Below, piece by piece: positions 310 through 63,943 of a stretch of 64,000 nucleotides of DNA (positions within the stretch are counted from its first letter, which is position 1; every line of letters begins with the position of its first letter). This stretch comes from an uncultured Chloroflexia bacterium (GTDB lineage: Bacteria > Chloroflexota > Limnocylindria > Limnocylindrales > CSP1-4). Both the position numbers and the translations under genes were made by a program. The stretch spans positions 55,059 through 119,058 of the forward strand of contig CAVQSY010000003.1 in NCBI GenBank assembly GCA_963716025.1, read 5' to 3'. Under the pieces are notes generated by a model, which was not told the DNA's origin, searched no databases, and saw only the letters and a program-made list of their open reading frames with translations.

Positions 310-2040
310 TCAGGCCGGCGTCGCGGACCTGCCGGCGAGGAACGCCTCGACGTCCTCGATCGGTCGCACGACCTTGTCGCCCGTCGCGCGGTTCGTTGAC
401 CTCGATCCCGCCGGCTGCCAGCGAGCGCGGGCTGACGGTCAGGATCCAGGGCATCCCGAGCAGCTCCGCGTCGGTGAACTTGACGCCCGGCGACTCGTCG
501 CGGTCGTCGTACAGGATCTCGTGGTGCGGGCCGGCGGCGGCCGCGAGCTCGTGGAGCCGATCCGCGATCTCCGGTCACGCTGGGGATCCTTGTTGGCGCC
601 GAGGGCCACGAGGTGCGCCGGGTACGGGGCCACCTCGGCGGGCCACCGATCCCCTTCTCGTCGTGGTGGGCCTCGACGATGCACGCGACGTTGCGACCCA
701 GGCCGATGCCGTAGGAGCCCATCACGATCGGGTGGCGCTCGCCATCCTCGCCCAGGTACTCGGCGCCCGAGCGCCTCGGTGTACCTGGTCCCGAGCTTGA
801 AGATGTTGCCGACCTCGATGCCGTTGCGCAGGATCACCGTCCCGTCGCAGTTGGGACAGCGGTCGCCCTCGCGGACGCTCGCGATGTCGGCGACCACGTC
901 CGGCGTGTAGTCCCGGCCGACGTTGATGTTGCGCAGGTGGTAGCCCGCGCTTGTTGGCGCCGGCGACCAGGTTGGGGCTCTGCGCCACCAGGTCGTCCAC
1001 CACGATGACCGCGTCGCGGGCGCCGATCGGCGAGCCGTAGCCCGCCTCCATGCCGCGCGCCTGGATCTCCTCGACCTGGGCCGGCCGCAGCCCGCCGATC
1101 GCCTTGATCGCGTTGACCAGCTTGGTCTCGTTGACGTCGTAGTCGCCGCGCACGATGGCCACGACGAACCGCCCGTCGCCGGTCACGAAGAACACGGCCT
1201 TGGCCGTCCGGCTGGCGGGACGCCGAGGAACGCCGCCAGCGCCTCGATCGTGGTCGTGTCGGGGGTGTGCGACCTCCTCGACCGGGGCAGCGTCCTCCTC
1301 GCGGGCCGGCGCATCCGCGATCGTCGGGGCGATCTGGCGGTTCGACGCGTAGCCGCAGGCCTCGCACAGGACCAGCACGTCCTCGCCCGCGGGGTTGAGC
1401 GAACATGAACTCGTGGGCCAGGCTGCCGCCCATCATCCCGACGTCGGAGCTGACCGGCGATCGCCTTGAGGCCGAGGCGCTCGAAGATCCGGGTGTAGGC
1501 CCGATGGTGCGCCCAGTACGCCGTGTCGAGGCCCGCGTCGTCGCGATCGCAGCGTGTACGAGTCCTTCATCACGAACTCGCGGACGCGGATGAGGCCGCC
1601 GCGGGACCGAGGCTCGTCGCGGAACTTGGTCTGGAAGTGGTAGACGATCATCGGCAGCTGCCGGTAGCTGCGCACGATGTCGCGCAGGAGGTCCGCCACG
1701 ACCTCCTCGTGGGTCATCGCGAGCACCATGTCCCGGTCGCGCCCGGTCCTTGAAGCGCGCCATCTCCGGGCCGATCGCGTCGTAGCGGCCGGTCTCCCGC
1801 CACAGGTCCGCCGGGATGGACGACCGGCATCTCCATCTCCTGGCCGCCGATGGCGTTCAGCTCCTCGCGGATGACCTGCTCGACGCGCTGGTTGACGCGG
1901 AACCCGAGCGGCAGCAGCGAGTAGATGCCGGCACCCAGCTGGCGCACGTAGCCCGCCCGCAGCAGCAGGCGGTGGGACGGCATCTCCGCTTCGGAGGGGT
2001 CGTCGCGGAGCGTGGTGAAGAACAGGCTGGAGAGGCGCAT
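310..2040 (-). pseudogene. proS: prolyl-tRNA synthetase with many reading-frame breaks
   Basis: ProS-like blocks are spread over all three minus frames. [49 protein letters not shown] (ORF 1714..3336 tail). [60 protein letters not shown] (ORF 1433..2164). [17 protein letters not shown] (ORF 834..1763). VLCEACGYASNRQIA and AKAVFFVTGDGRFVVAIVRGDYDVNETKLVNAI (ORF 722..1378). [36 protein letters not shown] (ORF 439..897). Hand translation gives the C-terminus [27 protein letters not shown] with a stop at about 310. I count at least eight frame changes. Confidence 0.9.
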
Positions 2041-2187
2041 GGCGCGAAGGATACCGGTCCGGCGCAGCGCGGGCCTCCCGGCCGCAGATGTCGACATGGC
2101 GTTCATCTGCCGGCTCGCGGCCGGTATCCTTTCGACCGCCGCCAGTCCCCAGCCCCGGCGGCACGGAGGAGCCCTCCCATCCAGGAC

Positions 2188-3180
2188 CTGACGCTGTTCC
2201 TGCTCGCGGTCATCGCGCTGGCCGTCGTGTTCGACTACATCAACGGCTTCCACGACACGGCCAACGCGATCGCCACGTCCGTTGCGACCCGTGCCCTCCG
2301 CCCGCAGTACGCGCTGCTGATGGCCGCCGCCTTCAACTTCATCGGCGCCTTCGCCGGGACCGCCGTAGCCAAGACGATCGGGGCCGGGATCGTCGACGAG
2401 CAGACGACCACCCAGGTGGTGGTGGCCGCCGCGCTGATCGGCGCGATCGCGTGGAACCTGATCACGTGGTGGCTGGGCCTGCCCAGCTCGAGCAGTCACG
2501 CGCTGATCGGCGGCCTCCTCGGGGCGACCATCATCGCCAGCGGGACCGGCGCCCTCAAGATCGACGGGATCCTCAACAAGGTGGGCGTGCCGCTGGTCAG
2601 CTCGCCGGTCATCGGGTTCATCGGGGCGCTGGCGCTCATGGTCGCCATGAGCTGGCTGTTCCGGGGGTATGCGCGCAAGCGCCTCAGCACCGTGTTCCGG
2701 CGCCTCCAGGTGTTCTCGGCCGGCTTCATGGCCTTCGCGCACGGCTCCAACGATGCCCAGAAGACGATGGGCATCATCACCCTCGCGCTGTTCTCGGCGG
2801 GGGTCATCCCCACCGTGGAGGTCCCCGTGTGGGTCATCGTGATCTCGGCGACGGCGTTGTCGCTGGGAACCGCGATGGGTGGCTGGCGGATCATGCACAC
2901 GATGGGCCAGCGGGTGGTGGAGCTGGAGCCGATCCACGGCTTCGCGGCCGAGACGACGGCGGCGACCGTCATCTACGGGGCGGCCCACTTCGGGATGCCC
3001 GTGTCCACGACCCACGTCATCTCCAGCGCCATCATGGGCGTCGGCACCAGCCGGGGCCTGCGCGGGGTCCGCTGGGGCGTTGCCCGCCGGATCCTGATCG
3101 CATGGGTGCTCACCATCCCTGCCGCCGGAATCGTCGGTGCCCTGTCCTGGGTGGTGCTCAACGGCATCGGCTTCCGATGA
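2188..3180 (+). CDS. pit: PiT-family inorganic phosphate transporter
   Basis: Frame of ORF 1816..3180. Reads [37 protein letters not shown] and later [13 protein letters not shown] and [16 protein letters not shown], the duplicated PiT signatures. There is no ATG near the first TM helix. GGAGGA at 2165-2170 suggests a non-ATG start around 2179-2188, so the start is uncertain. Confidence 0.85.
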
Positions 3181-11522: not shown

Positions 11523-12168
11523 GTGGCTGACTGGCCGAACCTTCACGTGTCGCAGCACCCCGCCGTCCGCCACAAGCTGGGCATCCTGCGGGACGTGGCG
11601 ACCGAGCCCAAGAAGTTCCGCGAGGTCGTCCGGGAGCTCTCCTGGCTGCTGGGCTACGAGGCGCTCGCCGACGCCCACACCCGGCCCATCGACGTCCCGA
11701 CGCCGCTCGAGGTCGATGCAGGGCGAGGAGCTCGCCGATCGCATCGGCTTCATCCCCATCCTGCGCGCCGGTCTGGGCATGGTGGACGCGTTCCTGGAGC
11801 TGATGCCCACCGCCCAGGTCTGGCACCTGGGCCTGTTCCGCGACGAGCGCACGCTCCGCCCGGTCGAGTACTACAACAAGCTGCCCAACACCAGCACCGT
11901 GGACCTGTGCCTGATCCTCGACCCGATGCTCGCCACGGGCGGATCGGCCACGGCGGCGATCGAGGTCCTCAAGAAGTGGGGCGCGGTCCGGATCAAGCTC
12001 GTCAACCTGATCGCCGCGCCCGAGGGCGTCGAGGCGGTCCTGGCCGCCCACCCCGAGGTGGAGATCCACACGGCCGCCCTGGACCGCCAGCTCAACGAGA
12101 AGGGCTACATCATGCCCGGCCTGGGCGACGCCGGCGACCGCCAGTTCGGGACGGGCCACAGCGGCTGA
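11523..12168 (+). pseudogene. upp: uracil phosphoribosyltransferase with one +1 frameshift near 11715
   Basis: GTG at 11523: [47 protein letters not shown]...PTPLEV. The frame then switches to ORF 11716..12168: [22 protein letters not shown]...[11 protein letters not shown]...[17 protein letters not shown]. An extra G sits in GTC-G-ATG-CAG. Confidence 0.9.
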
Positions 12169-44934: not shown

Positions 44935-44936
44935 CT

Positions 44937-49179: not shown

Positions 49180-51795
49180 GTGGGTCGCGTGCTGCGTGGC
49201 GCGCTCGTGCTGGTCGTGATCGTGGTCGTGGCCAGCGTCGTGGCCGGCGGGGGGCTGATCGCGGCGATCACCGCCTCGGGCCAGCCGCAGCTTTCGGGCA
49301 CGGTCGTGATCCCGGGTCTCGACGAAGCGGTCGAGGTGAGCCGGGACGCCAGCGGGGTGACCCACATCACCGCGGGGACCGAGCACGACCTGTTCCTGGC
49401 CCAGGGGTGGATCCACGCGTCGGAGCGCCTGTGGCAGATGGAGATCTACCGCCGGATCGGCGCGGGGCGGCTCTCCGAGCTGTTCGGCGAGAGCCAGGTG
49501 GCCACCGACTCGTTCATCCGGACCGTCAACTGGCGGGGCGCCGCCCAGCGCGACCTTGGCGCCCTGTCCGCCGCGTCGCGGGCATTGCTGCAGGCGTACA
49601 GCGATGGCATCAACGCCTACATGGACGGTCACCCGTCCGCGCTCGGAACGTCGTTCGTGGTCGCGGGCCTCCTGGGCGGCGAGGGCGAACCGCTGGGCGG
49701 GCTACGCCCGGAACCGTGGGCGCCCCTCGACACGCTGACCTTCGCCAAGCTCCAGGCATGGAGCCTGGGCGGGAACGTCGACACCGAGATCTTCCGGATG
49801 CTGGCCGACGCGCAGCTTGGCGACCCCGCCCTCACGGACCAGCTGTTCCCGCCCTACGCCGCCGGCCAGCCGGTGATCGGCGCGCCGGAGGACGCTGCGG
49901 GTGGGGCGTTCCTGGCACCCGCGCCGACGAGCCGGGCTGCGGCGCTGACGGCGCCCGTCGGCCCCGATGCCCAGGCCTGGACCGAGCTCGGGCGGCTGAT
50001 GGGAGGCATCGGGGTGCTGGCGGGCCTGACGCCGGAGACCAACCTCGTCGGCACCGGCGGCGTGGGCTCCAACAACTGGGTGGTCGGGCCGTCGCACACG
50101 GCGTCCGGCAGCGCGATGCTCGCCAACGATCCGCACCTCGCCTTCAGCATGCCCTCGATCTGGTACGTCAATGGGCTCCACTGCCGGCCCGTCTCCGCGG
50201 CCTGCGCGTTCGACGTGGCCGGCGTCACCTTCCCCGGCACGCCCGGCGTGATCCTCGGCCACAACCAGCGCATCGCGTGGGGCGTGACCAACGTGAACCC
50301 GGACGTCCAGGATCTCGTGGAGGAGCGGGTCGACCCGGCGGACCCGACCCGCTACCTGACCCCAGGCGGCTCCGAGCCGTTCACGCTCCGGACCGAGACG
50401 ATCCGGGTTGCCGGCGGTGACGACGTGACGCTGACGGTTCGCGAGACGCGGCACGGTCCGGTCATCACGGACGTGGACGATCGCCTGAAGACGTCCGGCA
50501 GCCCGTACGTCCTTCGCTGGACCGCCCTGTCGGAGCCCGACCGGATCCTCGAGGCCTTCCTGGACATCGATCGCGCGACCGACTGGACCTCGTTCCGGGA
50601 GGCGCTCCGCAAGTACGGGGCCCCGTCCCAGAACTTCGTGTACGCCGATGTCGACGGGCACATCGGCTACCAGATGCCAAGCACGATCCCCGTTCGCACG
50701 CTTCCCGGTGACACCGGTGCCCGGCCGGTTCCCGGCTGGGACGGCCGGCACGAGTGGGTGTCGTTCGTGCCGTTCGATGACCTGCCCAGCGTGTTCGATC
50801 CCCCGTCTGGCCGCATCGCCACGGCCAACAACCAGGTGTGGTCCGACGGCCCCTTCCTCGGTGACGAGTGGGACCGAGGCGACCGCGCGGCCCGGATCCT
50901 GGAATTGATCGACGCCGCGGGCGACGAGGTCACGCTGGACACGCTCGCAGCCATCCAGGGCGACACGCTGCTCCGGCGCGCCGCACGCCTCACGAGCGCC
51001 GTTCGCGGCCTGGGCCCGACCCCCGCGACCGCCGACGGGCAGACCGTGTACGACGAGATCCTGGCATGGGACGGCCGCTGCGACGTCGACTCGACCGGTT
51101 GCTCGGCATACCTCGTGTTCGAGCTCGCGCTCGTCCGCGGCTTGTTCGATGACGAGCTGGGTCCGCTCGCACGCGACTTCGTCGGGTCCGACACCGCGCA
51201 CGACCTCGCGGCGAGCCTCGTGGGAACCCCTGAGGGTCGCGCGTCGGCCTGGTGGGGCGATGCCAGGACGGGCCGGGAGGGCGACCCGGAGCCGGTGGTC
51301 GCCGCGGCCCTCGATGCGGCCGGCTCGTGGCTGCGCCGCGACCTGGGCAGCCCGCGGCGATGGACGTGGGGCCGCATGCACACCGTGACGTTCCAGGAGT
51401 CGACCCTGGGGACCAGCGGGATCGGCCCCCTGGAGTGGTACTTCAACAGCCCCTCGTACCCGGTGGCGGGCGCGGACGGTGCCGTCGACAACACCTACTA
51501 CCGGCTGTGGCGTGCCTACCCCGATCCGTACGACCCCGACTACGAGCCGGCCGACACGCTGCCGGAGCTGTTCTCGGTGACCAACGGGCCGTCGATGCGG
51601 GCGCTCTACGACCTTGGCGACCTCGATGGCGGGCGCATCGTGACGACCACCGGTCAGAGCGGTCACCCGTTCAGCCGTCACGGGACGGACTTCATCGGGC
51701 CGTGGCTTGCCAATCAGACCGTGCCGCTGCCATTCAGCGCGGACGCGATCAGCGCGGCGTCGGTGGCGAAGTTGGAGCTGACCCCCGCCCATTGA
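49180..51795 (+). CDS. penicillin acylase family (Ntn hydrolase, peptidase S45) protein
   Basis: GGAGGAGGAG then GTG at 49180. Signal anchor VGRVLRGALVLVVIVVVASVVAGGG. QGWIHASERLWQMEIYRR. Beta-subunit nucleophile context GGVGSNNWVVGPSHTASGSAMLANDPHL. Confidence 0.85.
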   Translation: MGRVLRGALVLVVIVVVASVVAGGGLIAAITASGQPQLSGTVVIPGLDEAVEVSRDASGVTHITAGTEHDLFLAQGWIHASERLWQMEIYRRIGAGRLSELFGESQVATDSFIRTVNWRGAAQRDLGALSAASRALLQAYSDGINAYMDGHPSALGTSFVVAGLLGGEGEPLGGLRPEPWAPLDTLTFAKLQAWSLGGNVDTEIFRMLADAQLGDPALTDQLFPPYAAGQPVIGAPEDAAGGAFLAPAPTSRAAALTAPVGPDAQAWTELGRLMGGIGVLAGLTPETNLVGTGGVGSNNWVVGPSHTASGSAMLANDPHLAFSMPSIWYVNGLHCRPVSAACAFDVAGVTFPGTPGVILGHNQRIAWGVTNVNPDVQDLVEERVDPADPTRYLTPGGSEPFTLRTETIRVAGGDDVTLTVRETRHGPVITDVDDRLKTSGSPYVLRWTALSEPDRILEAFLDIDRATDWTSFREALRKYGAPSQNFVYADVDGHIGYQMPSTIPVRTLPGDTGARPVPGWDGRHEWVSFVPFDDLPSVFDPPSGRIATANNQVWSDGPFLGDEWDRGDRAARILELIDAAGDEVTLDTLAAIQGDTLLRRAARLTSAVRGLGPTPATADGQTVYDEILAWDGRCDVDSTGCSAYLVFELALVRGLFDDELGPLARDFVGSDTAHDLAASLVGTPEGRASAWWGDARTGREGDPEPVVAAALDAAGSWLRRDLGSPRRWTWGRMHTVTFQESTLGTSGIGPLEWYFNSPSYPVAGADGAVDNTYYRLWRAYPDPYDPDYEPADTLPELFSVTNGPSMRALYDLGDLDGGRIVTTTGQSGHPFSRHGTDFIGPWLANQTVPLPFSADAISAASVAKLELTPAH

Positions 51796-51825
51796 CGGCC
51801 GGGGGCCGCCGGTACCATCGCCACC

Positions 51826-52791
51826 ATGGCCTCGAACCGCGCGCCGCTGACCGGGACGCTCGCCGCCGTGGTGGCGGCCTCGCTGTTCGGGATGCTGGGG
51901 CCGCTGGCCCGGTTCGGCGCCGATGCCGGCGTCGGAGGGGTCGCGTTCACGGCGTGGCGCGCCCTGCTCGGCGTCGCGTTCCTGGGCCTCCTGATCGCCT
52001 CGCGGGGTGCCGCCCGCTCGTCGCTTGCCGCCGTGCGCGGACTGCCCGGCCGGGGACGGGCATCCCTCGGGATCGCCGCGCTCATGGGCGTGACCCTCAA
52101 CGTGTCCATCTTCAGCGCTTTCGGCCTGGTGCCGATCGCGCTCGCATTGATGCTGTTCTACCTCTACCCCGCGGGCGTGGTCGTCGTGGACCTGGTGCTG
52201 GGCCGGGAGCGCCTGTCCGCGTCCCGGCTGGCCGCCCTGCTGCTCTCGTTCGGCGGCGTCGTGCTCGTGCTCGCGGGCGGCATGGAGGATGCATCCGGCG
52301 CACCGCTCAGCCTGCTGGGGATCGCGCTCGGGCTTGCGGCCGCGGCCAGCCAGGTCGTGTTCATGACCGTCAGCCGCGGTGGGTACTCAAGCGTGCCGGC
52401 GGATGCGGCAACGCTCGTGATCCTCTCCACGTCCGTCGTGGGTGCGGCATTGATCGCGATCCTGGCCGGGCAGGGACCCGACCTGCTGGTGCCGCTGGGG
52501 GACCCGGGTTCCTGGCCGGTGATCCTCGTCGCGGGCGTGGCCGCCGCCGGCGTCTCGTCGCTCCTGTTCCTGACCGCGATCCGAGGCATCGGCGCGACCC
52601 GCACGGGGATCCTGATGCTCCTGGAGCCGGTGGTCGGGGTGCTGCTCGCGGCCCTGTTGCTCGGAGAGTCGCTGGCGCCGATCCAGGTCGTCGGCGGCGC
52701 GCTGGTCCTCGTCGGCGCGCTCGTGCTCCAGGTCCGGTCGGCGCCCGAGCTGGAGCCGATCGCCGAGACCGACGCGGGGCCAGTCGTCTGA
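51826..52791 (+). CDS. EamA/DMT-family transporter
   Basis: Ten predicted TM helices and a duplicated EamA-like architecture (...FTAWRALLGVAFLGLLIA... / ...SSLLFLTAIRGIGATRTGILMLLEPVVGVLLAALLLGE). Confidence 0.8.
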   Translation: MASNRAPLTGTLAAVVAASLFGMLGPLARFGADAGVGGVAFTAWRALLGVAFLGLLIASRGAARSSLAAVRGLPGRGRASLGIAALMGVTLNVSIFSAFGLVPIALALMLFYLYPAGVVVVDLVLGRERLSASRLAALLLSFGGVVLVLAGGMEDASGAPLSLLGIALGLAAAASQVVFMTVSRGGYSSVPADAATLVILSTSVVGAALIAILAGQGPDLLVPLGDPGSWPVILVAGVAAAGVSSLLFLTAIRGIGATRTGILMLLEPVVGVLLAALLLGESLAPIQVVGGALVLVGALVLQVRSAPELEPIAETDAGPVV

Positions 52792-52885
52792 CGTGGGTCC
52801 AAACGCCTGACCAGGCGCTCGGCGGGCGCGCGGCGGTTCGGTGGCTCGGCGGGCGCGCGGCGGGCGCGCGGCGGCTCGGCTGGCG

Positions 52886-52917
52886 ACCGAACGGTGCGTT
52901 CCCGTTCGGTTCTGTTC
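52886..52917 (+). terminator. intrinsic terminator after the EamA gene
   Basis: ACCGAACGG-TGCGTTC-CCGTTCGGT followed by TCTGTTC. Confidence 0.55.
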
Positions 52918-53010
52918 GCCCAGCGATCGGAATGCGGGTGGTTGACCCCACGAGCCCGCCGGTTCCACTCGCAGGGCGAGCGCCCCCGGCGGTGACCGCA
53001 CGGTTCAGCC

Positions 53011-53198
53011 GCCGGGCGAGCGGGCACCGGGCGCCGGGATCGGCGGGGCGAGCGGGCACCGGGCGCCGGGATCGGCGGGGCGAGCGGGCACCGGGCGCCG
53101 GGATCGGCGGGGCGAGCGGGCACCGGGCGCCGGGATCGGCGGGGCGAGCGGGCGAGCGGGCACCGGGCGCCGGGATCGGCCGGGCGAGCGGGCCCGGG
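53011..53198. repeat. tandem repeat, 32-bp unit CGAGCGGGCACCGGGCGCCGGGATCGGCGGGG x5 plus a partial unit (one 8-bp internal duplication)
   Basis: Unit starts at 53017, 53049, 53081, 53113 and 53153 (after the CGAGCGGG duplication at 53145). There are no spacers. The period is not a multiple of 3. Confidence 0.95.
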
Positions 53199-53213
53199 AC
53201 CCCGCAGATGGAC

Positions 53214-53600
53214 CTACGCCTCCTCGTGGAGCTCCAGCGGCCCCTCGTCGACCTCGATCACCACGCGGCCATCCTCGACCCGGACCTCGTAGGCCGCGAG
53301 CGGGAGCTCCGCCGGCGGATCGAGCGGCTCGCCATCGGTCAGGTCGAAGCGCGACAGGTGCAGGGCGCAGGTCAGGGTGCCCGCGGTCAGGAACCCACGG
53401 TCGAGCTCGAAGTACTCGTGCGAGCAGGTCCCCTGCAGCGCGTGGAACTCGCCGTTGACATGGATCACGAGCACCGGGTCGGACTGGTCCACCCAGACCA
53501 TCCGCATCTCCCCCTCCTCGAGCTCGTCGACTCCGAGGAGGTCGATGACCCGGCTCAGGCCGCCGTCGCGGAACCGGCCGCCGCGAGCCCGGCGGCCCAC
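53214..53600 (-). CDS. Rieske [2Fe-2S] domain protein of the suf operon
   Basis: ...DELEEGEMRMVWVDQSDPVLVIHVNGEFHALQGTCSHEYFELDRGFLTAGTLTCALHLSRFDLTDGEPL (CxH ... CxxH). Overlaps the sufD 3' end. Confidence 0.8.
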   Translation of the reverse strand: MGRRARGGRFRDGGLSRVIDLLGVDELEEGEMRMVWVDQSDPVLVIHVNGEFHALQGTCSHEYFELDRGFLTAGTLTCALHLSRFDLTDGEPLDPPAELPLAAYEVRVEDGRVVIEVDEGPLELHEEA

Positions 53601-54961
53601 TTGGCCTCCAGGGCATCGCGCAGGCGGTCCTGCGCCTCCTCGAGGGGAACCCGGGCCACCACCGGCTCCAGGAATCCGAGGACGATGAACTTGCGGGCCT
53701 CGTCGGGGGCGATGCCCCGGCTCTCGAGGTAGAACAGCTGGCTCTCGTCGATGGGACCGACGGACGAGCTGTGCGCCGCGCGCCGGCAGTCCGGCTGGTC
53801 GATCTCGAGCGACGGGATGGCCACCGCGCGCGCCGCCTTCGAGAGGTTCATGCCGAACTCTCCGAGGAAGCTGTCGGTGCCCACCGCGGTCTTCTCGATC
53901 ACGATCAGACCCTTCATGTAGCTGCGGGCCTTGTCGAACAGCACGCCCTTCGAGAGCAGCTGGCCGGTGGTGTCGCGCCCGACGTGGCGGGTATACGAGG
54001 TCAGGTCGTGCAGCTGGTCCTCGGCACCGAACACGATCTCGACCTGCTCGACGACGCTCCGATCGCCGGCGAGGACGTTGTCGACGCGAGAGCGGACGAG
54101 CCGGCCGCCCAGCTGGGCCAGGGCCCAGCGCAGGTCGGCGCCCTCCCCGATCTCGGCTCGGCGCTGCTGGAACACCACGTGGTCCGGGCCCAGCTCCTGG
54201 AGCGAGGCCATGGCGAGCCGGGCATGCGCACCGAGCCGGATCTCGGTGGTGGAGGAGAGCAGCGCCTGCGATCCGGCGACCGCCGCGTCACTCGCGACCA
54301 GCTCCTCCACGATCGTGGCCTCCGCGCCATCCTCGAGGACCAGGAACGTGCGCCCGATGAGGGTCCGCGGAGCGCCCAACGACCAGCGCACGACGATCGG
54401 GCGCTCGACCCGGACGCCGGCCGGCACGTGGACCACGACGCCGGTCGTCCAGGCCGCGCGGGACAGCTCGGCCAGCTTCTCGTCCCGGGGCAGGAGCGGC
54501 GCACCCTCGAGGAGCGATCGCGCCAGCGCCTCGTCGGACGCCACGAGCTCGGGCAGGGTCAGCAGGCGCACGCCGTCGGCCGCGGCCCGGGCGTCCAGGG
54601 AGCGCGCGATGGCGCCCTCCTCGCCCATCTCGATCAGCCCGGCGACGTCGTCTCCGGGCGTGCCCTCCGCTCCCTTTCCGGCCGGCGACGTGAACGGCAG
54701 CGCCCCGTCGAGCGACGCGGCGCGCAGGTCCAGGTACGGCGTGTACAACCGGTTGCTCTCCACCGGGAGCGCCTCGAACGCCGCCAGGGCGGCGAGGCGG
54801 TCCTCACGCAGCCAGGCTGGCTCGGCGGCCGCCTCCGAGATCGCGTCGACCAGGGCCCGGTCAACAAAGCTGAACGGCAGGTCCGCGGGCGCCCGGCGCG
54901 GGGCGTGTACCGGGCGCGCGGGGCTCGTCGGAAGCGACGAGGGTTCGGCGACCTCCGTCAT
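53555..54961 (-). CDS. sufD: Fe-S cluster assembly protein SufD
   Basis: Intact 468 aa. ATGA overlap with the sufB stop. C-terminal blocks [25 protein letters not shown]...[37 protein letters not shown]. Confidence 0.85.
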
Positions 54962-56362
54962 CCGAGCGACCCCTCCATCTCCAGCTTGACCAGGCGGTTG
55001 AACTCGATCGCGTACTCCATCGGGAGCTCCTTGGTGAACACCTCGAGGAAGCCCTGGATGACCAGGTTCTGCGCCTCGTTCTCGGTCAGCCCACGGCTCA
55101 TGAGGTAGAAGATCTGGTCGGCCGAGATCTTCCCCACCGTCGCCTCGTGGGTCATCGTGGTGTCGTCTTCCTGGATGTCGATGTACGGGTAGGTGTCGCT
55201 GCGGCTCTGATCATCGAGCATCAGGGCATCGCATCGCACGCTCGCCGTGACGCCCGTCGCCCCGGGCGCGATCCGCAGCTGGCCCCGATAGGTGGCGCGG
55301 CCGCCGTCCTTGGACACGGACTTGGACACGATCCGGGAGGTGGTGTTCGGGGCGAGGTGGATGGCCTTGGCGCCGGTGTCCTGGTGCTGCCCCTTGCCGG
55401 CAACCGCCACCGAGATGACCTCGGCCCGGGCGCCCTCGCCACGCAGGTAGATCGCGGGGTACTTCATCGTGAGACGGGAGCCGGTGTTCGCGTCCACCCA
55501 CTCGACGGTCGAGTTGGCGTGCGCGTGGGCCCGCTTGGTGACCAGGTTGTAGACGTCGTTCGACCAGTTCTGGATGGTGGTGTAGCGGACCTTGGAGCCC
55601 GGCAGCGCGACGACCTCGACGACGGCGGCATGCAGCGAGTCGGTCGCGTAGATCGGCGCCGTGCAGCCCTCGATGTAGTGGACCTTGGCACCCTCGTCGA
55701 CGACGATCAGCGTCCGCTCGAACTGGCCAGTGTTCTCGCCGTTGATGCGGAAGTAGGCCTGGAGCGGGAGCGGGACCTCGACGCCCTTGGGCACGTACAC
55801 GAACGAGCCGCCGGACCAGACCGCGCGAGTTGAGCGCGGCGAACTTGTTGTCCTCGGGCGGGACCACCGTGCCGAAGTACTGCCGGAAGATCTCCGGGTG
55901 CTCCTTGAGCGCCTGGTCGGTGCCCATGAACACCACGCCGATCTTGGACAACTCCTCGCGCACGGAGTGGTAGACCACCTCGGAGTCGTACTGGGCGCCG
56001 ACGCCGGCGAGGAACTTGCGCTCGGCCTCGGGGATGCCCAGCTTCTCGAACGTCGCCTTGATCTGCTCCGGGACGTCGTCCCAGGACTTCTCCTCGCGCT
56101 CGGACGGCTTGCGGTAGTAGACGATCTTGTCGAAGTCGATGGCATCGAGCGCGCCGCCCCACTTGGGCATGGGGCGCTTGAGGAAGTGGTCGTACGCGCG
56201 CAACCGGAACTGGAGCATCCACTCCGGCTCCTCCTTGAACCGGGAGATCTCCTCCACCGTGTCGCGGGTGAGGCCGCGCTTGGTCTCGCGCAGGTACACG
56301 ATGTCATCGTGGAACGCGAACTGGTCGCGCTCGTCCTTGACGAGGTCACGGGTCGAGGTCAT
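54958..56362 (-). pseudogene. sufB: Fe-S cluster assembly protein SufB with one +1 frameshift near 55825
   Basis: N-terminal part in ORF 55211..56521 ([20 protein letters not shown]...[13 protein letters not shown]). C-terminal part in ORF 54958..56349 ([28 protein letters not shown]...[10 protein letters not shown]). An extra base lies within CGCGCG at 55822-55827. Confidence 0.9.
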
Positions 56363-56557
56363 CGCAGCTCCGTTCGCGGCCACAGGGCCGACGGCTGGGG
56401 TCCGGTTGAGTGGTGGCGGGTCGAGAGGGAGCGCCGCGACCCCGGGGACGCGGGGCCGCAGGCTAATCCCTAGTGGAATTATCGGAATTACCGGCCGATC
56501 CGTCAACGACGACCCCGGCACGCGCCCCGTGCGAGCCCGATGGTCCGCCGATCCCGC

Positions 56558-57849
56558 CTAGAAGTGGGTCGTGCACCAGGGCGGATCGGCGGTCCGGAAC
56601 AGGCCGTCAGCGTCGCCAAGCGCACCCGGCCGATGCTCCTCGTACCCGGTGCTCAGGGCGACGTGCGCAAGGCGCGTGCCGCCGAGGTAGGCTCCAGACA
56701 GCGCCGCGACCGGAACCGTGAGGTCCGGTGGACGGTCCGTCGGGCGGCACGATGCGCCCTCTGGCCCGACCTCGAGCAGGAGACGCGACGTCCCGCCCCA
56801 CATCGGATCGTCGATCACCTCGATGACCACGCGCCCGGTTCGCGCATAGGCCCGTGCCTCCAGGGCACGCGGCACGTCGAACAGCCGGACCCAGAGCCGT
56901 CGACCCAGTCCGTGACCCGGGCTGCCCGGGCATTCGTGAGCAGCCATGGGAACCGCTCGGATTCGCGGCGGTCGGGCAGCCTGACGGTCGCCAGCAGGTC
57001 GAGGTCGAGCACGAACCGGAGCAGGTCGTCCTCTGCGGTGTCGGTGAGGGCGTGGAGCTCGTTGACCTCCACCACGCCCATCGGCAAGCCCTGCTGCCAC
57101 TTCGGGTCCGCCTTCCAGCGGACGTACCCGTCGACCGCGCCCGACGGGGCGCGGTGGAGCGCGACAAACCCGTTCCAGCGCTCGCCCCAGGGCTCGTCAC
57201 GCAGGCCGAACGCCCGGTCCCAGGTGGAGTCGCGGCGCCGGATCTCGCCGGGCTGGCGGAGCCGCCACGCGTCGAAGACGGCGGCGCTGGCATCGCGGCT
57301 GGCCGGTGCCGCCGGGACGAGCTCGACGGCGCCGCCGAGCTCGCCGTGGGAGCCTTCTGGCTCGCCGTGGGAGCCGTCTGGCTCGCCCGCGGAACCGCCG
57401 GGCTCGCCACGGAGCCGGGTCGCGCGGGCGTCGATCGTGTACTCCACCTGACGCGTCGCCGGCGCGTAGCCGAGCCGTCCGTAGATGCCGTACTCGGCCG
57501 CGTAGAGCAGCGCCACGGGCTCCCCGCGCTCACGCAGGGCCGCGTGCTCGCGGGCCGCGAGGGCCGTCATGATCCCGCGTCGCCGGTGCGTCGGGAGCAC
57601 GGTGACGGCCGACACGGCCGATGCAGGCAGACGTCGCAGGCCGGGGGCCGTCACCTCCGTGGGAAAGGAGCGAAACGTCCCGACCACCCGGTCCCCGTCG
57701 AACGCGAGCCACACGCGGTCCGGGTCCCAGTTGGCCCGCATGCTCTCCGCCACGGCGCGGTTGTCGGGCCGCTCCATGAACGCGGTGGTGATGACGTCGA
57801 CGGCCGCCTCGTAGTCGTCCGGCGAGGCGTTCCGGATCTCGATCGCCAT
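56558..57849 (-). pseudogene. Eis-like GNAT acetyltransferase (GNAT plus SCP2-like C-terminus) with a 1-nt deletion near 56898
   Basis: MAIEIRNASPDDYEAAVDVITTAFM...VTVLPTHRRRGIMTALAAREHAALRERGEPVALLYAAEYGIYGRLGY (ORF 56815..58008). The frame then switches to LWVRLFDVPRALEARAY...GGTRLAHVALSTG (ORF 56558..57100). Confidence 0.75.
57340..57416. repeat. tandem repeat, 21-bp unit CTCGCCGTGGGAGCCTTCTGG, about 3.6 copies
   Basis: Units at 57340, 57361, 57382 and 57403 (partial). In frame in the Eis-like gene, giving GEPGGSAGEPDGSHGEPEGSHGE. Confidence 0.85.
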
Positions 57850-57920
57850 GCCATCGACTCTAGCACCGGGCGGGGTCGCGCTAGACTTGCCACGTTCGTG
57901 GACAGTGGAGGAATGAGCGC

Positions 57921-59138
57921 TTGACCAACGAGAGTCGGCAGTCCGACGACCTGCGGTTGCCGGACGGCCGGATCCTCGTGCACATCGGGCCGCACAAGAC
58001 CGGGACAACGTCGCTCCAGGCCGCCCTGTTCACCGCACGGCCGTCCCTCCGCGAGCAGGGCGTTCACCATGCCGGCTGGTCCCGGAACCCGGCCCCGCGC
58101 CATCCAGTCGGTGACCGGCCAGGTCTCCGCCTGGAGTGACACCCCTCCTCCCATCCGCGGCTGGCTGAACCTGGAAAGGACATCCACCGCGCGCAGCCCG
58201 ACCGCGTCATCCTGAGCAGCGAGTTCCTTGCCCACGCGCGGCCCGACGTGGTGCGCCGGGTCGTGGACGACCTGGGCCGGGACCGGGTCCACGTGGTGAC
58301 CACCCTGCGGCCGATCGCCAGGATCCTGCCCTCGATGTGGCAGCAGAGCATCAGGGCGGGACGGACCACAGCCTTCGACGCCTGGCTCCGTCGCCTGTTC
58401 GCGACGGACCAGCCGCCGGCGGGCTTCTGGACCCTCCAGGAGCACGATGCGCTGATCCGGCGATGGGCCGATGCGGTGGGCATCGACCGCGTCACGGCCG
58501 TCGTGCTCGATGAGGGCGATCGCGAGATGGTGATGCGCACGTTCGAGCGGATCCTCGGCCTGCGGCCAGGCACGCTGCAGTCCGTCTCCGGGCTCGCCAA
58601 CCGGTCGATCTCCGCGGAGGAGGCCGAGGCCATTCGGGCCTACAACATCGCGCACCGGCACGCCGGCCTGGGCAAGGCGATGCACGCCCTGGTCATGCGC
58701 TTCGGTGCGGCGCAGTACCTGTGCCGCCTGGATGCGTCCGAGGGCGGCACCACGATCCGGCTTCCGGGTTGGGTGCTCGATGACGTCGCCCGCAAGGCCG
58801 ACGCGATCGTATCGGGCATCCGGGCGTCCGGGGTGCGCGTGGTCGGAGACCTGGACCGGCTGCTCGAGGTGCCCGGGCCGCCGAGCCTGGAGGACGAGAC
58901 GCTCCCCGAGGACGTGCCGCCCGAGGTTGCCGCACGCATCGCCATGGGGATCCTGATCGCGAGCGGGCGGACGCGGCTCGACGGGGCGGTCGAAGACGAG
59001 GAGATCGCCGAGGTCGTGTCGGCGATTGCCTCACGGCAGCTCGCCGCCGCCGTGAGCCTGCGAACCCGCGCATCGCTGTGCCGAAAGCGAGATCGGGGCC
59101 TGCAGCTCCTGACGGGCGGGCTCGAGCGCGCCGGCCGG
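57921..59138 (+). pseudogene. paralog A of an uncharacterised sulfotransferase-like P-loop family (3' end approximate)
   Basis: GGAGGA then TTG at 57921. LPDGRILVHIGPHKTGTTSLQAALF...GVHHAG. The frame changes at about 58101 and returns at about 58179. Then VILSSEFLAHARPDVVRRVVDDLGRDRVHVVTTLRPIARILPSMWQQSIRAG...ANRSISAEEAEAIRAYN...SGVRVVGDLDRL...VAARIAMGILIASG. There is no stop before paralog B in this frame. Confidence 0.6.
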
Positions 59139-60475
59139 GTGATCCGGCCGCCCGCAGGACAGGATGCCTCGCCCGCGGCAACAGCACCGGCGGGAGCCGG
59201 TGCGGCGCACCACCCGGACGCGCTTCCGGCGGGCACGATCCTCGTCCACATCGGGCCGCCCAAGACCGGGACGACCGCGGTCCAGGCGGCGTTCGACGAG
59301 GCCCGTGCGCGGACCGCGGCGCAGGGCGTGCACTATGCGGGCCGGCGACGGCACTCGATCTCCGCGGTCCAGGCCGTGCTCCTCCGGCGCGGGATCAAGT
59401 CCGAGACCGTCCCGCCGATGGGTGCCCTGGAACCGGCTGCTCGAGCGAGATCCGCCACACCGCCGCGGGCCGGGTGGTCCTGAGCAGCGAGTTCTTCGCC
59501 GACGCGACGCCCGACGGATCCGGGCCGTGGTCGATGCGCTGGGGCCGGACCGCGTGCAGGTGTCGTGGTGACCCTGCGGCCGCTTGCGAGGGTCATCCCA
59601 AGTCAATGGCAGCAGTACGTCCAGAGCGGACTCAAGACGAGCTACGCCTCCTGGCTGGATGCCATGCTCAACCGGCCGCCCGGCAAGCTGTCGCCGTCCT
59701 TCTGGCATCGCCATCGCCACGACGAGCTGATCGCCCGCTGGGCTGCAGTGGTTGGCCCCGATCGAGTGACCGCCATCGTCGTCGACGAGGGTTCCCGCGA
59801 GTCGATCCTGCGCCAGTTCGAGCAGCTCGCCGGACTGGAGGAGGGCACCCTCCGCCTCCAGGAATTGCTCCAGAACCGGTCGCTGACGTTCGAGGAGGTT
59901 GAGGCCGTCCGCGCGCTGAACGTGGCCTTCGCCGCCGCCGGACTCCGGCGACCGCTGCATGCCGAGATCGTCAACTTCGGCGCGACGGAGCACCTCAAGA
60001 TCGTTCCGCCCGAGTCCGGGACGACACGCATGGAGCTGCCCGCGTGGGCGGCCGCACGGGTGAGCGAGATCTCGCAGGAGGTGGCGGCCGGCATCACCGC
60101 CTCGGGGGTGCGGGTGATCGGGGACCTGGACCACCTGCGTGAGGTCGTGGCCGGTGGGGGCACCGGACCCGGGCGGAGCCTGTTCGCATTCCAGTCTCGG
60201 TGGCGGCGCGCCTGATGCTGGGGGTCCTGCTCGCGACCGGCCTCGTTCCCGACGGGCTCAGGACCCTGGAGCGGATCGCGACACCGGCGCCCGCGGCCGG
60301 GCGTGGAGGCCGGGGCGGCCGCAGGGATCGCGTCCCGACACCGCGCACGATCGGTCCCCGGATGGCCGAGCCGATCGAGATCGCTCGCGTCCCCACCCGG
60401 CGCCTCGTCGGCATCCTCGCCAGGCGGGGCCGCACGCGCTCGCTGACCGCCCGACTTCGGAAGCATGGCGCCTGA
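59139..60475 (+). pseudogene. paralog B of the same family (5' end approximate; at least five frame changes)
   Basis: LPAGTILVHIGPPKTGTTAVQAAFDEARARTAAQGVHYAG | AWNRLLERD | GRVVLSSEFFADATPDG | IRAVVDALGPDRVQV | VTLRPLARVIPSQWQQYVQSG...QNRSLTFEEVEAVRALN...SGVRVIGDLDHL | VAARLMLGVLLATG...LTARLRKHGA. The pieces come from ORFs 58248.., 59164.., 59078.., 59565.. and 60200.. Confidence 0.6.
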
Positions 60476-61681
60476 CGCCCTGCCCCCGGTCACGGTCGGC
60501 GCGAGCGCGCCGCCGCGCATCGAGCCTTTCCCGGTCGGGACCCGCCTCCTGCACATCGGGCCTCCCAAGACGGGAACGACGTCCCTCCAAGCCGCGTTCT
60601 GGGCCGCCCGCGAAGACGCCCTTTCGCAGGGCGTGCGCGACGCAGGCTCGAGCCGCCATCCTCGAGGGCGGTCCTCGCGGTCACCGTACGGATGTCCTTC
60701 GCCGAGGACCGGGCGACCCCGGACATCGGGCACTGGGAGCGCCTGCTCGCCGAGATCCGTGGGCGCCCGAGCCTCGTGTCGTCCTCAGCAGCGAGGGCTT
60801 CTCGTACGCGAGCGAAGCGGCGCGGGACCGCGTCATCACGGACCTCGATCCCGGTCGCGTCCACGTGGTCGTGACGCTGCGGCCGATCCGAAGGCTGCTG
60901 GCATCGGAATGGCAGGAGCACACGCAGAGCGGCCTGCGAGTGCCGTTCGACGACTGGCTCGACCAGCTGTTCAATCGGCCCGACACGAGGATCGCGCGGG
61001 CATTCTGGTGGCGGCAGCGCCACGACCGACTGGTCGAGCGGTGGGGATCCCCGGTCGGGATGGACCGGGTGACCGCGGTGGTGGCCGACGTCGCCTACCC
61101 CGAGCGCCTGTACTGGGTGTTCGGCGTCCACCGGGCTGCGGCAGGGGACGCTCGTCCCCGACCCCAGCCTCGCGAACCGGTCGCTCACGCTCGAGGAGAT
61201 CGTCGCGATCCGCGCCCTCGCGGAGCGGTTCGACGCCGAAGGCTTGAGCATGGCCGCCTTCCACCGGGTGGCCCGCATGAAGATTGCCGCCTACATGAAG
61301 CGGCGCCAGCCGGCCGTCGGCGAGGCGCGGATCGAGACGCCGCAATGGGCGCTCGACCGTGCCGGGGAGGTCGCCCGGGAGGTCGTGGCCGGCGTTGCCG
61401 CGTCCGGGGCCCGCGTCGTCGGCGATCTCGAGCTCCTGAAATCGCAGCCCGGGAGCGGCAGCCACGGCGAGCGGCTGCCGGAGGTGCCCGTCTCGCCCGA
61501 GGTCGCCGCCTGGGATGGCCATGGGCGCGGTGATGGTGGCTTACCTGGCGGAGCCCGGCGGACGCAGGCGGGCCGGAGCGTCGGTGGACCTGGCCTCGGT
61601 GCCGACGCCTTGCCTCGCCCGGACCCTCGCGGGAAGGGCGAGGCGCTTCGTCACCCGGCGCCTCGGACGCGGCCGGCCTGA
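60465..61681 (+). pseudogene. paralog C of the same family (at least four frame changes; 3' end approximate)
   Basis: The ATG at 60465 overlaps the paralog B stop (60473-60475). PVGTRLLHIGPPKTGTTSLQAAFWAAREDALSQGVR | MSFAEDRATPDIGHWERLLAEIRG | VVLSSEGFSYASEAARDRVITDLDPGRVHVVVTLRPIRRLLASEWQEHTQSG | ANRSLTLEEIVAIRAL(hand-read)...SGARVVGDLELL | MAMGAVMVAYL. Confidence 0.6.
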
Positions 61682-61693
61682 CCGTCACGACGC

Positions 61694-63066
61694 TCAGGCG
61701 CCCAGCCGGTCGACCGGCCTCCGGATGCGGGCGACGGCCACCTCGACCGTCGTGATGGTCGTGTCCACCACGACGTCCGCGTCGTCTGGCGCCTCGCAGG
61801 CCTACGAGATGCCGGTGAAGTCCGCGACCTCGCCGGCCCGGCCCTCGCGTAGAGGCCCTTCCGGTCGCGGGCCTCGCACACCTCGAGCGGGGTGCTCACC
61901 CAGACCAGCAGGAACGCGCCATTCGCCTCGGCCATGGCCCGCACCCGGGCCCGCGAGGACGCGAACGGGGCGATGGGTGCCGCGACGGCAATCCCGCCGT
62001 GGCGGCGAGCTGCGCAGCCACCCAGCCGATGCGTTCCACGTTGCGCTCCCGGGACGCCCCGTCGAAGCCCAGCTCCGCCGAGAAGTGCTGGCGGATCTCG
62101 TCGCCATCGAGGAGTGTCACGGGACGGGCACCCCCATCGAGCAGGTCCTCGACCAGGGCCCGGGCGATCGCGGACTTTCCCGAACCGGACAGGCCGCTGA
62201 ACAGCACGACGGCCCCGCCTGGCGGGGTCCCCGATCGAGCGCGCAGGATCTCGGCGGCCGACGCCTCCGGGGAGATGGCCCGCACCGCCCGCCCCCAGGC
62301 GCCCGCGAGCGACGAGATCGGTCGAGCTCCTCGGCGGTTCGCAGCGCGGACAGGGCAATGGTGCGCGTCGCTCCGTATGCCTCGAGGACCTCGGGGAGGG
62401 ATGGTGACCGCCAGCCGGCCGGCACCGGACCGGAGGGGGAAAAAACGGGGTCACCACGGGGACGACCGGCGTCCCGTGTATCTGCTCACCGAGGGCCTGG
62501 GCCGCCGCCACCGCGGCCCGGGTCAGGCCGGCCCAACTCACCGACCCCGCGGGCCGGTGCCGTCGCGCCACCGGGATCGCCAGCAGGACGGCCCCCGGCC
62601 GGGCTCCCTCGAGGATGCCGGCCGCCCGGTCGAGATCGGCCAGCGTGGGCACGTCGTCGACGACGAGCGCCGTGATCGGCTCCGCCGAGGCCACCGTCCC
62701 GATTCGGGCCTGGACGGCGGCGACCGACAACCGCAGCGCCGGATCCCAGTGCGGCCCTCCATGGGGAGCGAACGGACGTACTGGCTCGAGGATCCTCCTG
62801 CCGGCGACCGTCGACAGGCGGGCCAGGCGCGCGTTCTCCGCGTCGGTGAGCACGACGCCGTCCTCACCCGGATCGATCCCGGCCGGGGGCGTCGGGTGCC
62901 GGCACCGCGCCACCGAGGGCGAGCTCGAGGAGATCCAGGCCCACGTCGTCGAGGACGATCTTCTACTGCGGCCTCCTCGGGGGACGCTTCGGACAGGCGC
63001 GCCCTTGCCTCGGCCCGGCGGCCTTCGCTGCTCCTGTCGCCCGGGCGCGAGATGCCCGGGCCCCAT
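61694..63066 (-). pseudogene. cysC: adenylyl-sulfate (APS) kinase fused to an N-terminal degenerate ATP-sulfurylase-like domain; multiple frameshifts plus an in-frame TAG
   Basis: The APS kinase core is clear. GGAVVLFSGLSGSGKSAIARALVEDLLDGGARPVTLLDGDEIRQHFSAELGFDGASRERNVERIGWVAAQLA (ORF 61896..62285). GGIAVAAPIAPFASSRARVRAMAEANGAFLLVWVSTPLEVCEARDRKGLYARA (ORF 61651..63066). RAGEVADFTGIS-TAG-ACEAPDDADVVVDT (TAG at 61802-61804). The N-terminal roughly 260 aa (LDDVGLDLLELALGGA, GVVLTDAENARLARLS, AVLLAIPVARR) resemble Sat, but I cannot find the catalytic motifs. The start is uncertain. Confidence 0.7.
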
Positions 63067-63084
63067 TGCGGATCAGGATCGAGA

Positions 63085-63943
63085 TCAGGCTGCCGAGCCC
63101 GACGGTGCAGCCACGGCGGCCAGCAGGACGATCTCATTGCTGAACCCCAGCAGCTTGAGCGACGACGAGAGCAGCAGCACCGCGAGCACGCGCCGGATGA
63201 TGCCGCCGGGGGCGCGGGTGGAGACCTGGGCCCCGAACCAGGCGCCGGGGATCGCCCCGAACAGCAGCGAGAACGCGACGGCGAACGAGAAGCTGCCGAA
63301 CAGCATGTGGCCGGCAGCTGCCGAGCCCACCAGCGGGATCGCCTGGACGAGGTCGGTACCGACCAGCGCCGACGCCTGCAGGGCGGGGTGCATCATCAGC
63401 AGCCCGACCACGATGATCGATCCCGCGCCGACCGAGGTCAGGCCCACCATGAACCCGGCAACCGCCCCCAGGAGGACGGTCCGGATCGGCTTGAGGACCA
63501 CGGCCGGCTTCTTGGGCACGCCCGCGATGCCCTCGCCCAGGGGCAAGCCGCCGGCTCCACATCTGGATCAGCGCGCGGCTGATCAACCCGATGGTCGCCA
63601 GCATCAGGGCGAGCCCGCAGCCACGCTTGAGCCACAGATCGAGGTCGACGTCGGGGGGCACCTGGCTGATCAGCCAGGCCCCGGAGAACGCTGCCGGCAC
63701 GGAGCCCACGCACAGCCAGGCCACCAGCTTGAGGTTGACCGTTCCATGCCGGAGGCGGGCCCATGCCCCCACCGGCTTCATGAACAGGTTCACCACGATG
63801 TCGCTCGAGATCGCCGTCAGCGGGTCAACGCCGAACAGGAACACGAGCATTGGCGTCATCAGCGCCCCGCCACCCATCCCCGTGAGGCCGACGTCGGTGC
63901 CCACCAGGAGCCCCCCGATGGCCAGCGGCAGATCGAACGTCAT
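63085..63943 (-). pseudogene. TauE/SafE (DUF81) family anion exporter with one frameshift near 63540
   Basis: MTFDLPLAIGGLLVGTDVGLTGMGGGALMTPMLVFLFGVDPLTAISSDIV (ORF 63134..63985) joins ...AVAGFMVGLTSVGAGSIIVVGLLMMHP...FGAIPGAWFGAQVSTRAPGGIIRRVLAVLLL (ORF 63085..63546). Confidence 0.75.

What the first reader, a model, noticed from the sequence alone, without database searches (positions are those of the whole stretch)
310..63943. Reading-frame lesions are strongly clustered: proS and the 57.9-63.6 kb block carry most of them, while about 45 kb of other genes are intact
By hand I count roughly 30 frame breaks. They are: proS at least 9 in 1.7 kb; paralogs A, B and C plus the cysC fusion plus tauE about 17 in 6 kb; and single or double hits in upp (about 11715), beta-ureidopropionase (about 25114 and 25262), sufB (about 55825) and the Eis-like gene (about 56898). 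Long genes such as gltX, GH15, pckA, the LAL regulator, penicillin acylase, sufD and hydA have none. Uniform sequencing error would not give this pattern. The cysC region also has an in-frame TAG (61802-61804) inside the conserved FTGI-x-x-PYEAP block, with neighbouring codons also substituted. That is substitution decay, not an indel artefact. However, proS and sufB are normally essential, which argues for local assembly error or strain-mixture consensus problems. The data are therefore ambiguous: either genuine patchy pseudogenisation (requiring a second proS elsewhere) or locally poor consensus.
Basis: seen in the sequence. Interest (0 to 1): 0.6.

Follow-up and report, generated by a model that had tools for sequence, protein, structure and literature searches.

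The report
Clustered frameshifts are assembly errors
The broken reading frames are really in the deposited sequence and really come in patches, but they are almost certainly consensus errors of a noisy, strain-mixed long-read metagenome bin, so the genes (including essential proS and sufB) should not be read as pseudogenes.

Summary
A codon-model scan places 22 of 26 frame switches in 14% of the window (P about 2e-15). Alignment to relatives gives about 44 window-specific frame-breaking indels: 16 in proS, 24 in the last 7 kb and 4 isolated.

The cause is very probably poor consensus, not gene decay.
- The same scan finds about 1,720 frame switches across the 3.2-Mb, 90-contig, 69.7%-complete bin, touching 27% of gene calls, including FtsH and ClpB. 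They form about 115 patches of roughly 1 kb. Half of these cross gene boundaries, and they are enriched 2.4-fold near contig ends.
- The window's last 7.5 kb is the end of its contig. From 56.8 to 60.8 kb it differs from another public MAG by about 5 substitutions but about 14 indel columns.
- A second copy of the block in the same bin (C51) has the APS-kinase fusion, TauE and two paralogs intact. All 24 indels and the TAG at 61802-61804 are unique to the window.
- With the indels removed, proS is a collinear 572-aa gene with dN/dS 0.16, like its neighbours. No second proS exists.

The parts
310..2070 (-). proS (prolyl-tRNA synthetase). It carries 16 frame-breaking indels between 395 and 1812, 13 of them insertions and mostly single bases outside homopolymers.
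   Evidence: Indel list. HMM events at 394-1818. Pfam tRNA-synt_2b + tRNA_edit + HGTP_anticodon. The repaired gene is a collinear 572 aa with dN/dS 0.156. It is the only proS locus in the bin.
11529..12168 (+). upp (uracil phosphoribosyltransferase) with a single +1 insertion (C) at 11714.
   Evidence: Pfam UPRTase 1-206/206 after repair.
24991..25844 (+). Carbon-nitrogen hydrolase (beta-ureidopropionase-like) with two +1 insertions (G) at 25116 and 25258.
   Evidence: Pfam CN_hydrolase. dN/dS 0.039 after repair.
54958..56452 (-). sufB with a single +1 insertion (G) at 55825.
   Evidence: Pfam SUFBD_core. The second copy on C51 has a different single frameshift.
56558..58092 (-). Eis-like GNAT acetyltransferase with a single window-unique 1-base deletion at 56896-56899.
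   Evidence: Pfam Acetyltransf_9/17 + SCP2_2.
57921..61533 (+). Three tandem paralogs (A, B, C) with no Pfam family and a GPPKTGTT motif. Window-unique indels lie at 58093, 58174, 59425, 59445, 59514, 59560, 60170, 60437, 60658, 60760 and 61122.
   Evidence: Three-way alignment. The three paralogs in G008 each give a single one-frame hit. Paralogs B and C are intact on C51. No Pfam hit.
61694..62962 (-). APS-kinase (cysC) fusion gene. It has an in-frame TAG at 61802-61804 and window-unique indels at 61716, 61839, 62003, 62318, 62438 (+5) and 62883.
   Evidence: The C51 copy is intact and matches APS_kinase 2-152/152.
63085..64000 (-). TauE/SafE sulfite exporter gene, running off the contig end. 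Window-unique indels lie at 63103, 63545 and 63945.
   Evidence: The C51 copy is intact and matches Pfam TauE.
56800..64000 (.). Terminal block of contig C3 (the window ends at the contig end). It is about 99.9% identical in substitutions to relative G008 from 56.8 to 60.8 kb. From 60.8 kb to the end it carries noise-like mismatches and indels. It is duplicated at about 92-93% identity on contig C51 of the same bin.
25976..54950 (.). Longest stretch without a detected frame switch (about 29 kb). Two shorter clean stretches lie at 2179-11500 and 12244-24990.
   Evidence: HMM. Single-frame tblastn hits.

Best explanation
The frame breaks are consensus errors in a metagenome-assembled genome built from error-prone long reads. 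They are not mutations carried by the organism.

The bin belongs to Candidatus Limnocylindrales (Chloroflexota). It has 3.2 Mb in 90 contigs and holds several closely related strains. Where effective read depth for one haplotype falls to one or a few reads, polishing cannot remove random single-base insertions and deletions. This happens at contig ends, at strain bubbles and in chance depth troughs. The result is roughly 1-kb patches with about 6 frame switches per kb inside otherwise clean sequence. The proS patch is one such mid-contig trough. The 56.8-64 kb block is the last 7 kb of the contig, in a region where at least three related haplotypes (C3 end, C51, C42 start) tangle.

Shown: the lesions, their clustering, their genome-wide spread, their uniqueness to this assembly, and intact selection signatures.

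Inferred: the sequencing platform of this bin and the low local depth.
For: 1. Genome-wide spread. There are 1,721 non-junction frame switches (0.53/kb) on nearly all contigs, ranging from 0 to 3/kb per contig. 27% of gene calls are hit. The same model gives 0.07-0.08/kb on the syntenic regions of the better congeners G006 and G010. Essential or conserved genes elsewhere are hit hard: FtsH has 16 events and ClpB has 13, and both give full Pfam matches once frames are corrected.

2. Position, not gene, decides where patches fall. 115 patches hold 922 events. 56 of them touch 2 or more genes and 18 touch both strands. The median span is 1.05 kb. The rate is 0.97/kb within 5 kb of contig ends against 0.40/kb in the interior, and it is higher on short contigs.

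3. Indels without substitutions. From 56.8 to 60.8 kb the window differs from G008 by about 5 mismatches but about 14 indel columns.

4. Uniqueness. In the window/G008/C51 alignment, 24 indels and 80 substitutions are window-only. G008 has 12 indels and 16 substitutions of its own. The majority consensus shows only 3 HMM events, all read as gene-junction calls.

5. Noise-like substitutions. Window-unique substitutions fall at codon positions 24/35/22. The genuinely diverged C51 gives 81/66/218.

6. Intact copies nearby. C51 in the same bin carries the APS-kinase fusion, TauE and paralogs B and C intact. G008 has proS intact and each of its three paralogs gives a single one-frame hit.

7. proS shows no sign of decay. 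With the indels removed it is a collinear 572-aa protein, the same length as nearly all of the 120 listed relatives, with a best hit of 92% identity. dN/dS against G008 is 0.156, within the 0.04-0.24 range of most neighbouring genes.

8. No backup proS exists in the bin.

9. Assembly pathology. Many contig-end overlaps lie at 82-98% identity. C68 contains an imperfect inverted duplication with arms of about 11 kb, and it has 2.5 events/kb.

10. The relatives share the problem. The congeners are Flye + Medaka Nanopore-only MAGs (PMC12313526). G008 has its own patch of 4 frame switches in sufD, where the window is intact.

11. Indel context. The proS indels are not tied to homopolymers: 4 of 14 lie next to an identical base, against about 51% expected by chance. 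This fits raw-read noise better than systematic polished-consensus error.
Against: - Low depth and the platform of this particular bin are therefore inferred.
- No same-species independent assembly was found. The best ProS hit is 92% identical, so the proS indels could not be contradicted base by base.
- The detected proS events (394-1818) lie entirely inside one gene. By my own rough arithmetic from the gene lengths, a randomly placed 1.45-kb patch would do that about 5% of the time. Four further indels against G008 lie just upstream at 2060-2175.
- The frameshift scan is home-made and was trained on this bin. Contigs with other codon usage could inflate its counts.
Confidence: 0.9

Rival explanations
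1. Genuine patchy pseudogenisation. The organism is losing proS, sufB, upp and the sulfur-related cassette through real frameshift mutations, as in reductive genome evolution, and relies on a second copy or a partner organism.
For: The lesions are in the deposited sequence. The detected proS events lie within one gene. Window-unique substitutions in the cysC block are random by codon position, which neutral decay would also give. The bin is only 69.7% complete, so a second proS could be missing from it.
Against: - There are about 1,720 frame switches in 27% of genes, including FtsH, ClpB, ProS and SufB.
- proS has dN/dS 0.156 and is perfectly collinear at 572 aa after indel removal.
- No second proS, upp or CN-hydrolase is present.
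- All 24 terminal-block indels are absent from a 99.9%-identical relative and from the same-bin copy.
- About 14 indel columns against about 5 substitutions over 4 kb is not an evolutionary ratio.
- Half of the patches cross gene boundaries and they are enriched at contig ends.
Confidence: 0.04
2. Mixed case. Most lesions are errors, but the APS-kinase fusion / TauE end of the block (60.8-64 kb) is also a real decaying pseudogene region in the lineage shared by the window and G008.
For: G008 also shows frame switches in its copy of this region: HMM events at G008 local 64254-65555, which correspond to about window 61.9-63.2 kb. The window has an in-frame TAG and about 3% mismatches there.
Against: The G008 and window lesions lie at different positions: 12 are G008-unique, 24 are window-unique, and none is shared against C51 in a way that breaks the consensus frame. 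The majority consensus of the three sequences shows only junction-type HMM events. The TAG is window-only. The region is the extreme contig end.
Confidence: 0.05
3. The errors arise mainly from collapsing reads of several diverged strains into one consensus (a mosaic consensus), not from low depth as such.
For: The bin contains many alternative contigs at 82-98% identity. C51 overlaps the last 10.8 kb of C3 at 91.6% and continues into C42. Identity of the window to G008 jumps from 82-94% to 99.9% at about 56.8 kb.
Against: No alternative contig covers the proS patch. The proS lesions are single-base insertions with normal divergence around them. A collapse of strains about 10% apart should give substitution mosaics, not isolated 1-bp insertions. 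This rival is a variant of the artefact explanation, not an alternative to it.
Confidence: 0.3

Closest known systems
Indel errors in Nanopore-only (Flye + Medaka) metagenome-assembled genomes, as discussed for the Microflora Danica long-read catalogue (PMC12313526)
   Same: The closest relatives are MAGs of that catalogue. The window shows single-base indels that fragment genes. The bin has low estimated completeness for its size, alternative strain contigs and an inverted-duplication contig. The paper states that Medaka was used to reduce indel errors and that low-coverage MAGs showed reduced coding density.
   Different: The origin of this particular bin was withheld, so platform and depth are inferred. 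The errors here are mostly outside homopolymers and are strongly patchy. The paper emphasises long homopolymers in low-GC genomes.
Bacterial pseudogene accumulation in reductive genomes (for example Mycobacterium leprae; my own knowledge)
   Same: Many genes carry multiple frameshifts and stops.
   Different: Here the broken genes keep low dN/dS and full collinearity. Essential single-copy genes are hit. The lesions are unique to one assembly, cross gene boundaries and concentrate at contig ends.

Membership tests
Long-read assembly/consensus indel artefact | Lesions occur genome-wide regardless of gene essentiality | tested here: met
   1,721 frame switches; 27% of gene calls are hit. ProS, SufB, FtsH (16 events) and ClpB (13 events) are all broken.
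Long-read assembly/consensus indel artefact | Indels far exceed substitutions against an independent assembly of near-identical sequence | tested here: met
   From 56.8 to 60.8 kb there are about 5 mismatches against about 14 indel columns relative to G008. 24 indels are window-unique and 12 are G008-unique.
Long-read assembly/consensus indel artefact | Error density follows assembly position (contig ends, short contigs, strain bubbles), not gene boundaries | tested here: met
   0.97/kb near contig ends against 0.40/kb in the interior. 56 of 115 patches span 2 or more genes. The window's main block is the contig end and is duplicated on C51.
Long-read assembly/consensus indel artefact | Reads contradict, or only thinly support, the consensus at the lesions | not testable with these tools
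True pseudogenes / reductive decay | Relaxed selection (dN/dS approaching 1) in the broken gene | tested here: not met
   proS dN/dS is 0.156, CN-hydrolase 0.039 and upp 0.159. Most neighbouring genes fall between 0.04 and 0.24.
True pseudogenes / reductive decay | A functional replacement exists for an essential gene | tested here: not met
   Only one proS locus is found by the TIGR00409 search and by tblastn. Caveat: the bin is about 70% complete.
True pseudogenes / reductive decay | Lesions are shared by independent assemblies of the same lineage | tested here: not met
   All 24 terminal-block indels and the TAG are absent from G008 and C51. For proS, no same-lineage assembly was available.

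The most novel reading that the evidence does not exclude
The last roughly 7 kb of the contig carries an Eis-like GNAT gene, three unclassified tandem paralogs with a GPPKTGTT motif, an APS-kinase fusion and TauE. This block could be a real, very recently exchanged cassette between two species-level Limnocylindrales lineages. It is about 99.9% identical to G008 in substitutions, against a background of 82-94% for most of the window. The alternative is a chimeric join made by the assembler. The frameshifts would still be errors in either case.
Probability: 0.2. Interest if true: 0.3.

Novelty: not a real feature. Interest (0 to 1): 0.08.

Why it matters
The result matters mainly as a warning.
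- This bin, which serves as a species representative, has roughly one frame-breaking error per 2 kb, concentrated in patches.
- Gene calls, pseudogene counts, completeness estimates (69.7% here) and any 'odd gene' finding inside a patch are unreliable.
- Other findings from this genome that rest on a frameshift, a missing start codon or a premature stop should be discounted unless they lie in a clean stretch or are confirmed in relatives.
- The public relative G008 shows the same kind of patch in sufD.

Tried and rejected
- Looking up the source record of the window by exact protein: nothing on record, or withheld.
- Searching 5.8 billion proteins for a same-species intact ProS: the best hit is 92% identical, so the proS indels got no direct base-by-base contradiction.
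- A simple GC3 frame plot: too noisy, so it was replaced by a codon-usage Viterbi model with frameshift states. That model makes false calls at overlapping gene junctions (15218, 17436, 40749, 53576). These were filtered by requiring the old frame to stay open for more than 24 nt. The filter also drops two probably real events (60194, 62887).
- Homopolymer-driven error as the cause: rejected for proS, where 4 of 14 indels lie next to an identical base and 1 lies in a run of 3 or more.
- Programmed frameshifting: considered but not tested. It seems unlikely given 16 shifts in one gene and about 1,700 genome-wide.
Full report
**What the window is**

The window is G000:C3:55059-119058, and C3 is 119,061 bases long, so the window's right end is a contig end. 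G000 has 3.2 Mb in 90 contigs at 72% GC, with estimated completeness 69.7% and contamination 3.8%. Protein-based locus retrieval places it in Chloroflexota, Candidatus Limnocylindrales. The closest congeners used here (G005, G006, G008, G010) are 'MFD....bin' MAGs with Flye-style contig names. [quoted passage not shown] The record of G000 itself is withheld.

**Checking the observation**

I took GC3-filtered ORFs from about 70 kb of syntenic sequence in each of four congeners and ran tblastn against the window. Frame switches inside single query proteins appear in these genes:
- proS
- upp
- the CN-hydrolase
- sufB
- the Eis-like gene
- the APS-kinase fusion
- TauE

Every other gene with a clear ortholog matches in one frame; the few other two-frame hits are stop-to-stop ORF extensions upstream of the true start. 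Base-level alignment to G008 gives the exact lesions:
- proS: 16 non-3n indels between 395 and 1812 (13 insertions, 3 deletions, net +12)
- upp: +1 at 11714
- CN-hydrolase: +1 at 25116 and at 25258
- sufB: +1 at 55825
- Eis-like gene: -1 at 56899

I then wrote a codon-usage Viterbi model with frameshift states, trained on 772 long ORFs of the genome. After removing four gene-junction artefacts it frame switches in the window. 22 of the 26 lie in proS or the last 7.4 kb, which together make up 14% of the window (binomial P = 2e-15). The variance/mean ratio in 2-kb bins is 5.0, and the longest clean run is 30.6 kb. If anything, the count of about 30 is low.

**The same pattern holds genome-wide**

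The model finds 1,721 non-junction frame switches in the whole bin, or 0.53/kb. Contig C3 is below average at 0.29/kb, and contigs range from 0 to 3/kb. Other features:
- 60% of 2-kb bins have no events, and the top 10% hold 59% of events. The variance/mean ratio is 4.3.
- 115 patches hold 922 events. The median span is 1.05 kb at about 6 events per kb.
- 56 patches touch two or more genes and 18 touch both strands.
- The rate is 0.97/kb within 5 kb of contig ends against 0.40/kb in the interior. Contigs under 30 kb carry 0.8-1.1/kb against 0.4/kb for longer ones.
- 27% of gene calls are hit.

The same model, run on the syntenic regions of relatives, gives:

| Relative | Frame switches per kb |
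|---|---|
| G006 | 0.07 |
| G010 | 0.08 |
| G005 | 0.18 |
| G008 | 0.37 |

Genes with many events elsewhere include FtsH (16 events) and ClpB (13 events). Their frame-corrected translations give full-length Pfam matches, which also validates the model's calls.

**The terminal block**

Identity to G008, counting substitutions only, changes along the window:

| Window region | Identity to G008 |
|---|---|
| most of 1-53 kb | 82-94% |
| 53-57 kb (suf genes) | 92-97% |
| 57-60 kb | 99.9-100% |
| 60-61 kb | 99.5% |
| 61-64 kb | about 97.5-98% |

From 56.8 to 60.8 kb there are about 5 mismatches but about 14 indel columns. The same region exists a second time in the bin. Contig C51 overlaps C3:108275-119061 at 91.6% identity and runs on into the start of C42.

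A three-way alignment of window, G008 and C51 gives these sequence-specific differences:

| Sequence | Unique indels | Unique substitutions | Codon positions 1/2/3 |
|---|---|---|---|
| Window | 24 | 80 | 24/35/22 |
| G008 | 12 | 16 | 4/3/9 |
| C51 | 9 | 390 | 81/66/218 |

The majority consensus shows only three events, which I read as gene-junction calls. The window-only substitutions are random by codon position (64 nonsynonymous, 16 synonymous, 1 stop). Many are runs of adjacent mismatches next to indels. C51's differences show the third-position bias of real divergence. The single stop is the TAG at 61802-61804 (G>T at 61803), where C51 reads ...FTGISSPYEAP.... On C51 the APS-kinase fusion, TauE and paralogs B and C are intact, and the three G008 paralogs each give a single one-frame hit.

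**proS**

G008's proS is intact. When the window's indels are removed against it, the result is a stop-free, collinear protein that is 91.6% identical to G008's. The database search returns thousands of relatives. Nearly all of the 120 listed are exactly 572 aa, and the best is 92% identical. Nei-Gojobori dN/dS against G008 is 0.156. With G006 as outgroup, window-lineage changes are 28.5 synonymous and 12.5 nonsynonymous. Most neighbouring genes fall between 0.04 and 0.24. There is no second proS, upp or CN-hydrolase in the bin. The proS indels are not tied to homopolymers.

**Other signs of a noisy, strain-mixed long-read assembly**

- Many contig-end overlaps lie at 82-98% identity.
- C68 begins with an imperfect inverted duplication. 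Its arms are about 11 kb long and 84-93% identical with hundreds of gaps, and the contig carries 2.5 events/kb.
- G008 has its own patch of four frame switches in sufD, where the window is intact.
- Several congeners with very few contigs also score only 72-73% complete.

**Conclusion**

The lesions are a property of the assembly. Patches most likely mark stretches where the consensus rests on one or very few reads of a given haplotype.

Two points count against full certainty:
- The detected proS events lie within a single gene. By my rough estimate from gene lengths, a random 1.45-kb patch would do that about 5% of the time.
- No same-species independent assembly was found.

Earlier notes of this scan on other pieces of the same genome describe the same block-wise frameshifts hitting topA, valS, ileS and polA. 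I treated these as leads. My genome-wide scan agrees with them independently.

Noticed in passing
window 56500-64000; G000 contigs C51:1-10726 and C42:1-906: Identity of the window to relative G008 jumps from 82-94% over most of the window (92-97% over the suf genes) to about 99.9% at about 56.8 kb. The same bin holds a second version of this block (C51) at about 92-93% identity. This is either a chimeric join to a G008-like strain or a very recent exchange of the cassette between lineages.
   Followed up: partly
window 57921-64000: Three tandem paralogs with no Pfam family, each carrying a P-loop-like GPPKTGTT motif, sit next to an APS-kinase fusion (an N-terminal ~250 aa without a Pfam family) and a TauE sulfite exporter. 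This looks like a sulfation cassette with unclassified putative sulfotransferases. The sulfotransferase reading is a guess from the motif and the gene context.
   Followed up: partly
G000 contig C68:33-22276: An imperfect inverted duplication centred near 11.15 kb, with arms 84-93% identical and hundreds of gaps, on a contig with 2.5 frame switches per kb. It looks like a fold-back chimeric read turned into a contig.
   Followed up: no
G008:C12 (loci L015-L018), local 54646-56440 and 57569-58859: The public relative G008 has four frame switches in sufD, where the window is intact. It also has a 1.3-kb insertion between sufB and the Eis-like gene that both G000 versions lack.
   Followed up: no
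window 35930-42150 and 49040-51715: Two stretches (about 6.2 kb and 2.7 kb) have no counterpart at the syntenic position in G008, although the second is present in G005. These are flexible islands in an otherwise collinear region.
   Followed up: no
G000 whole bin: Numerous alternative contigs overlap at 82-98% identity, for example C24/C52, C39/C40, C36/C37, C21/C80, C44/C45 and C13/C14. The bin is a mixture of related strains. The 69.7% completeness estimate is probably depressed by broken marker genes.
   Followed up: partly
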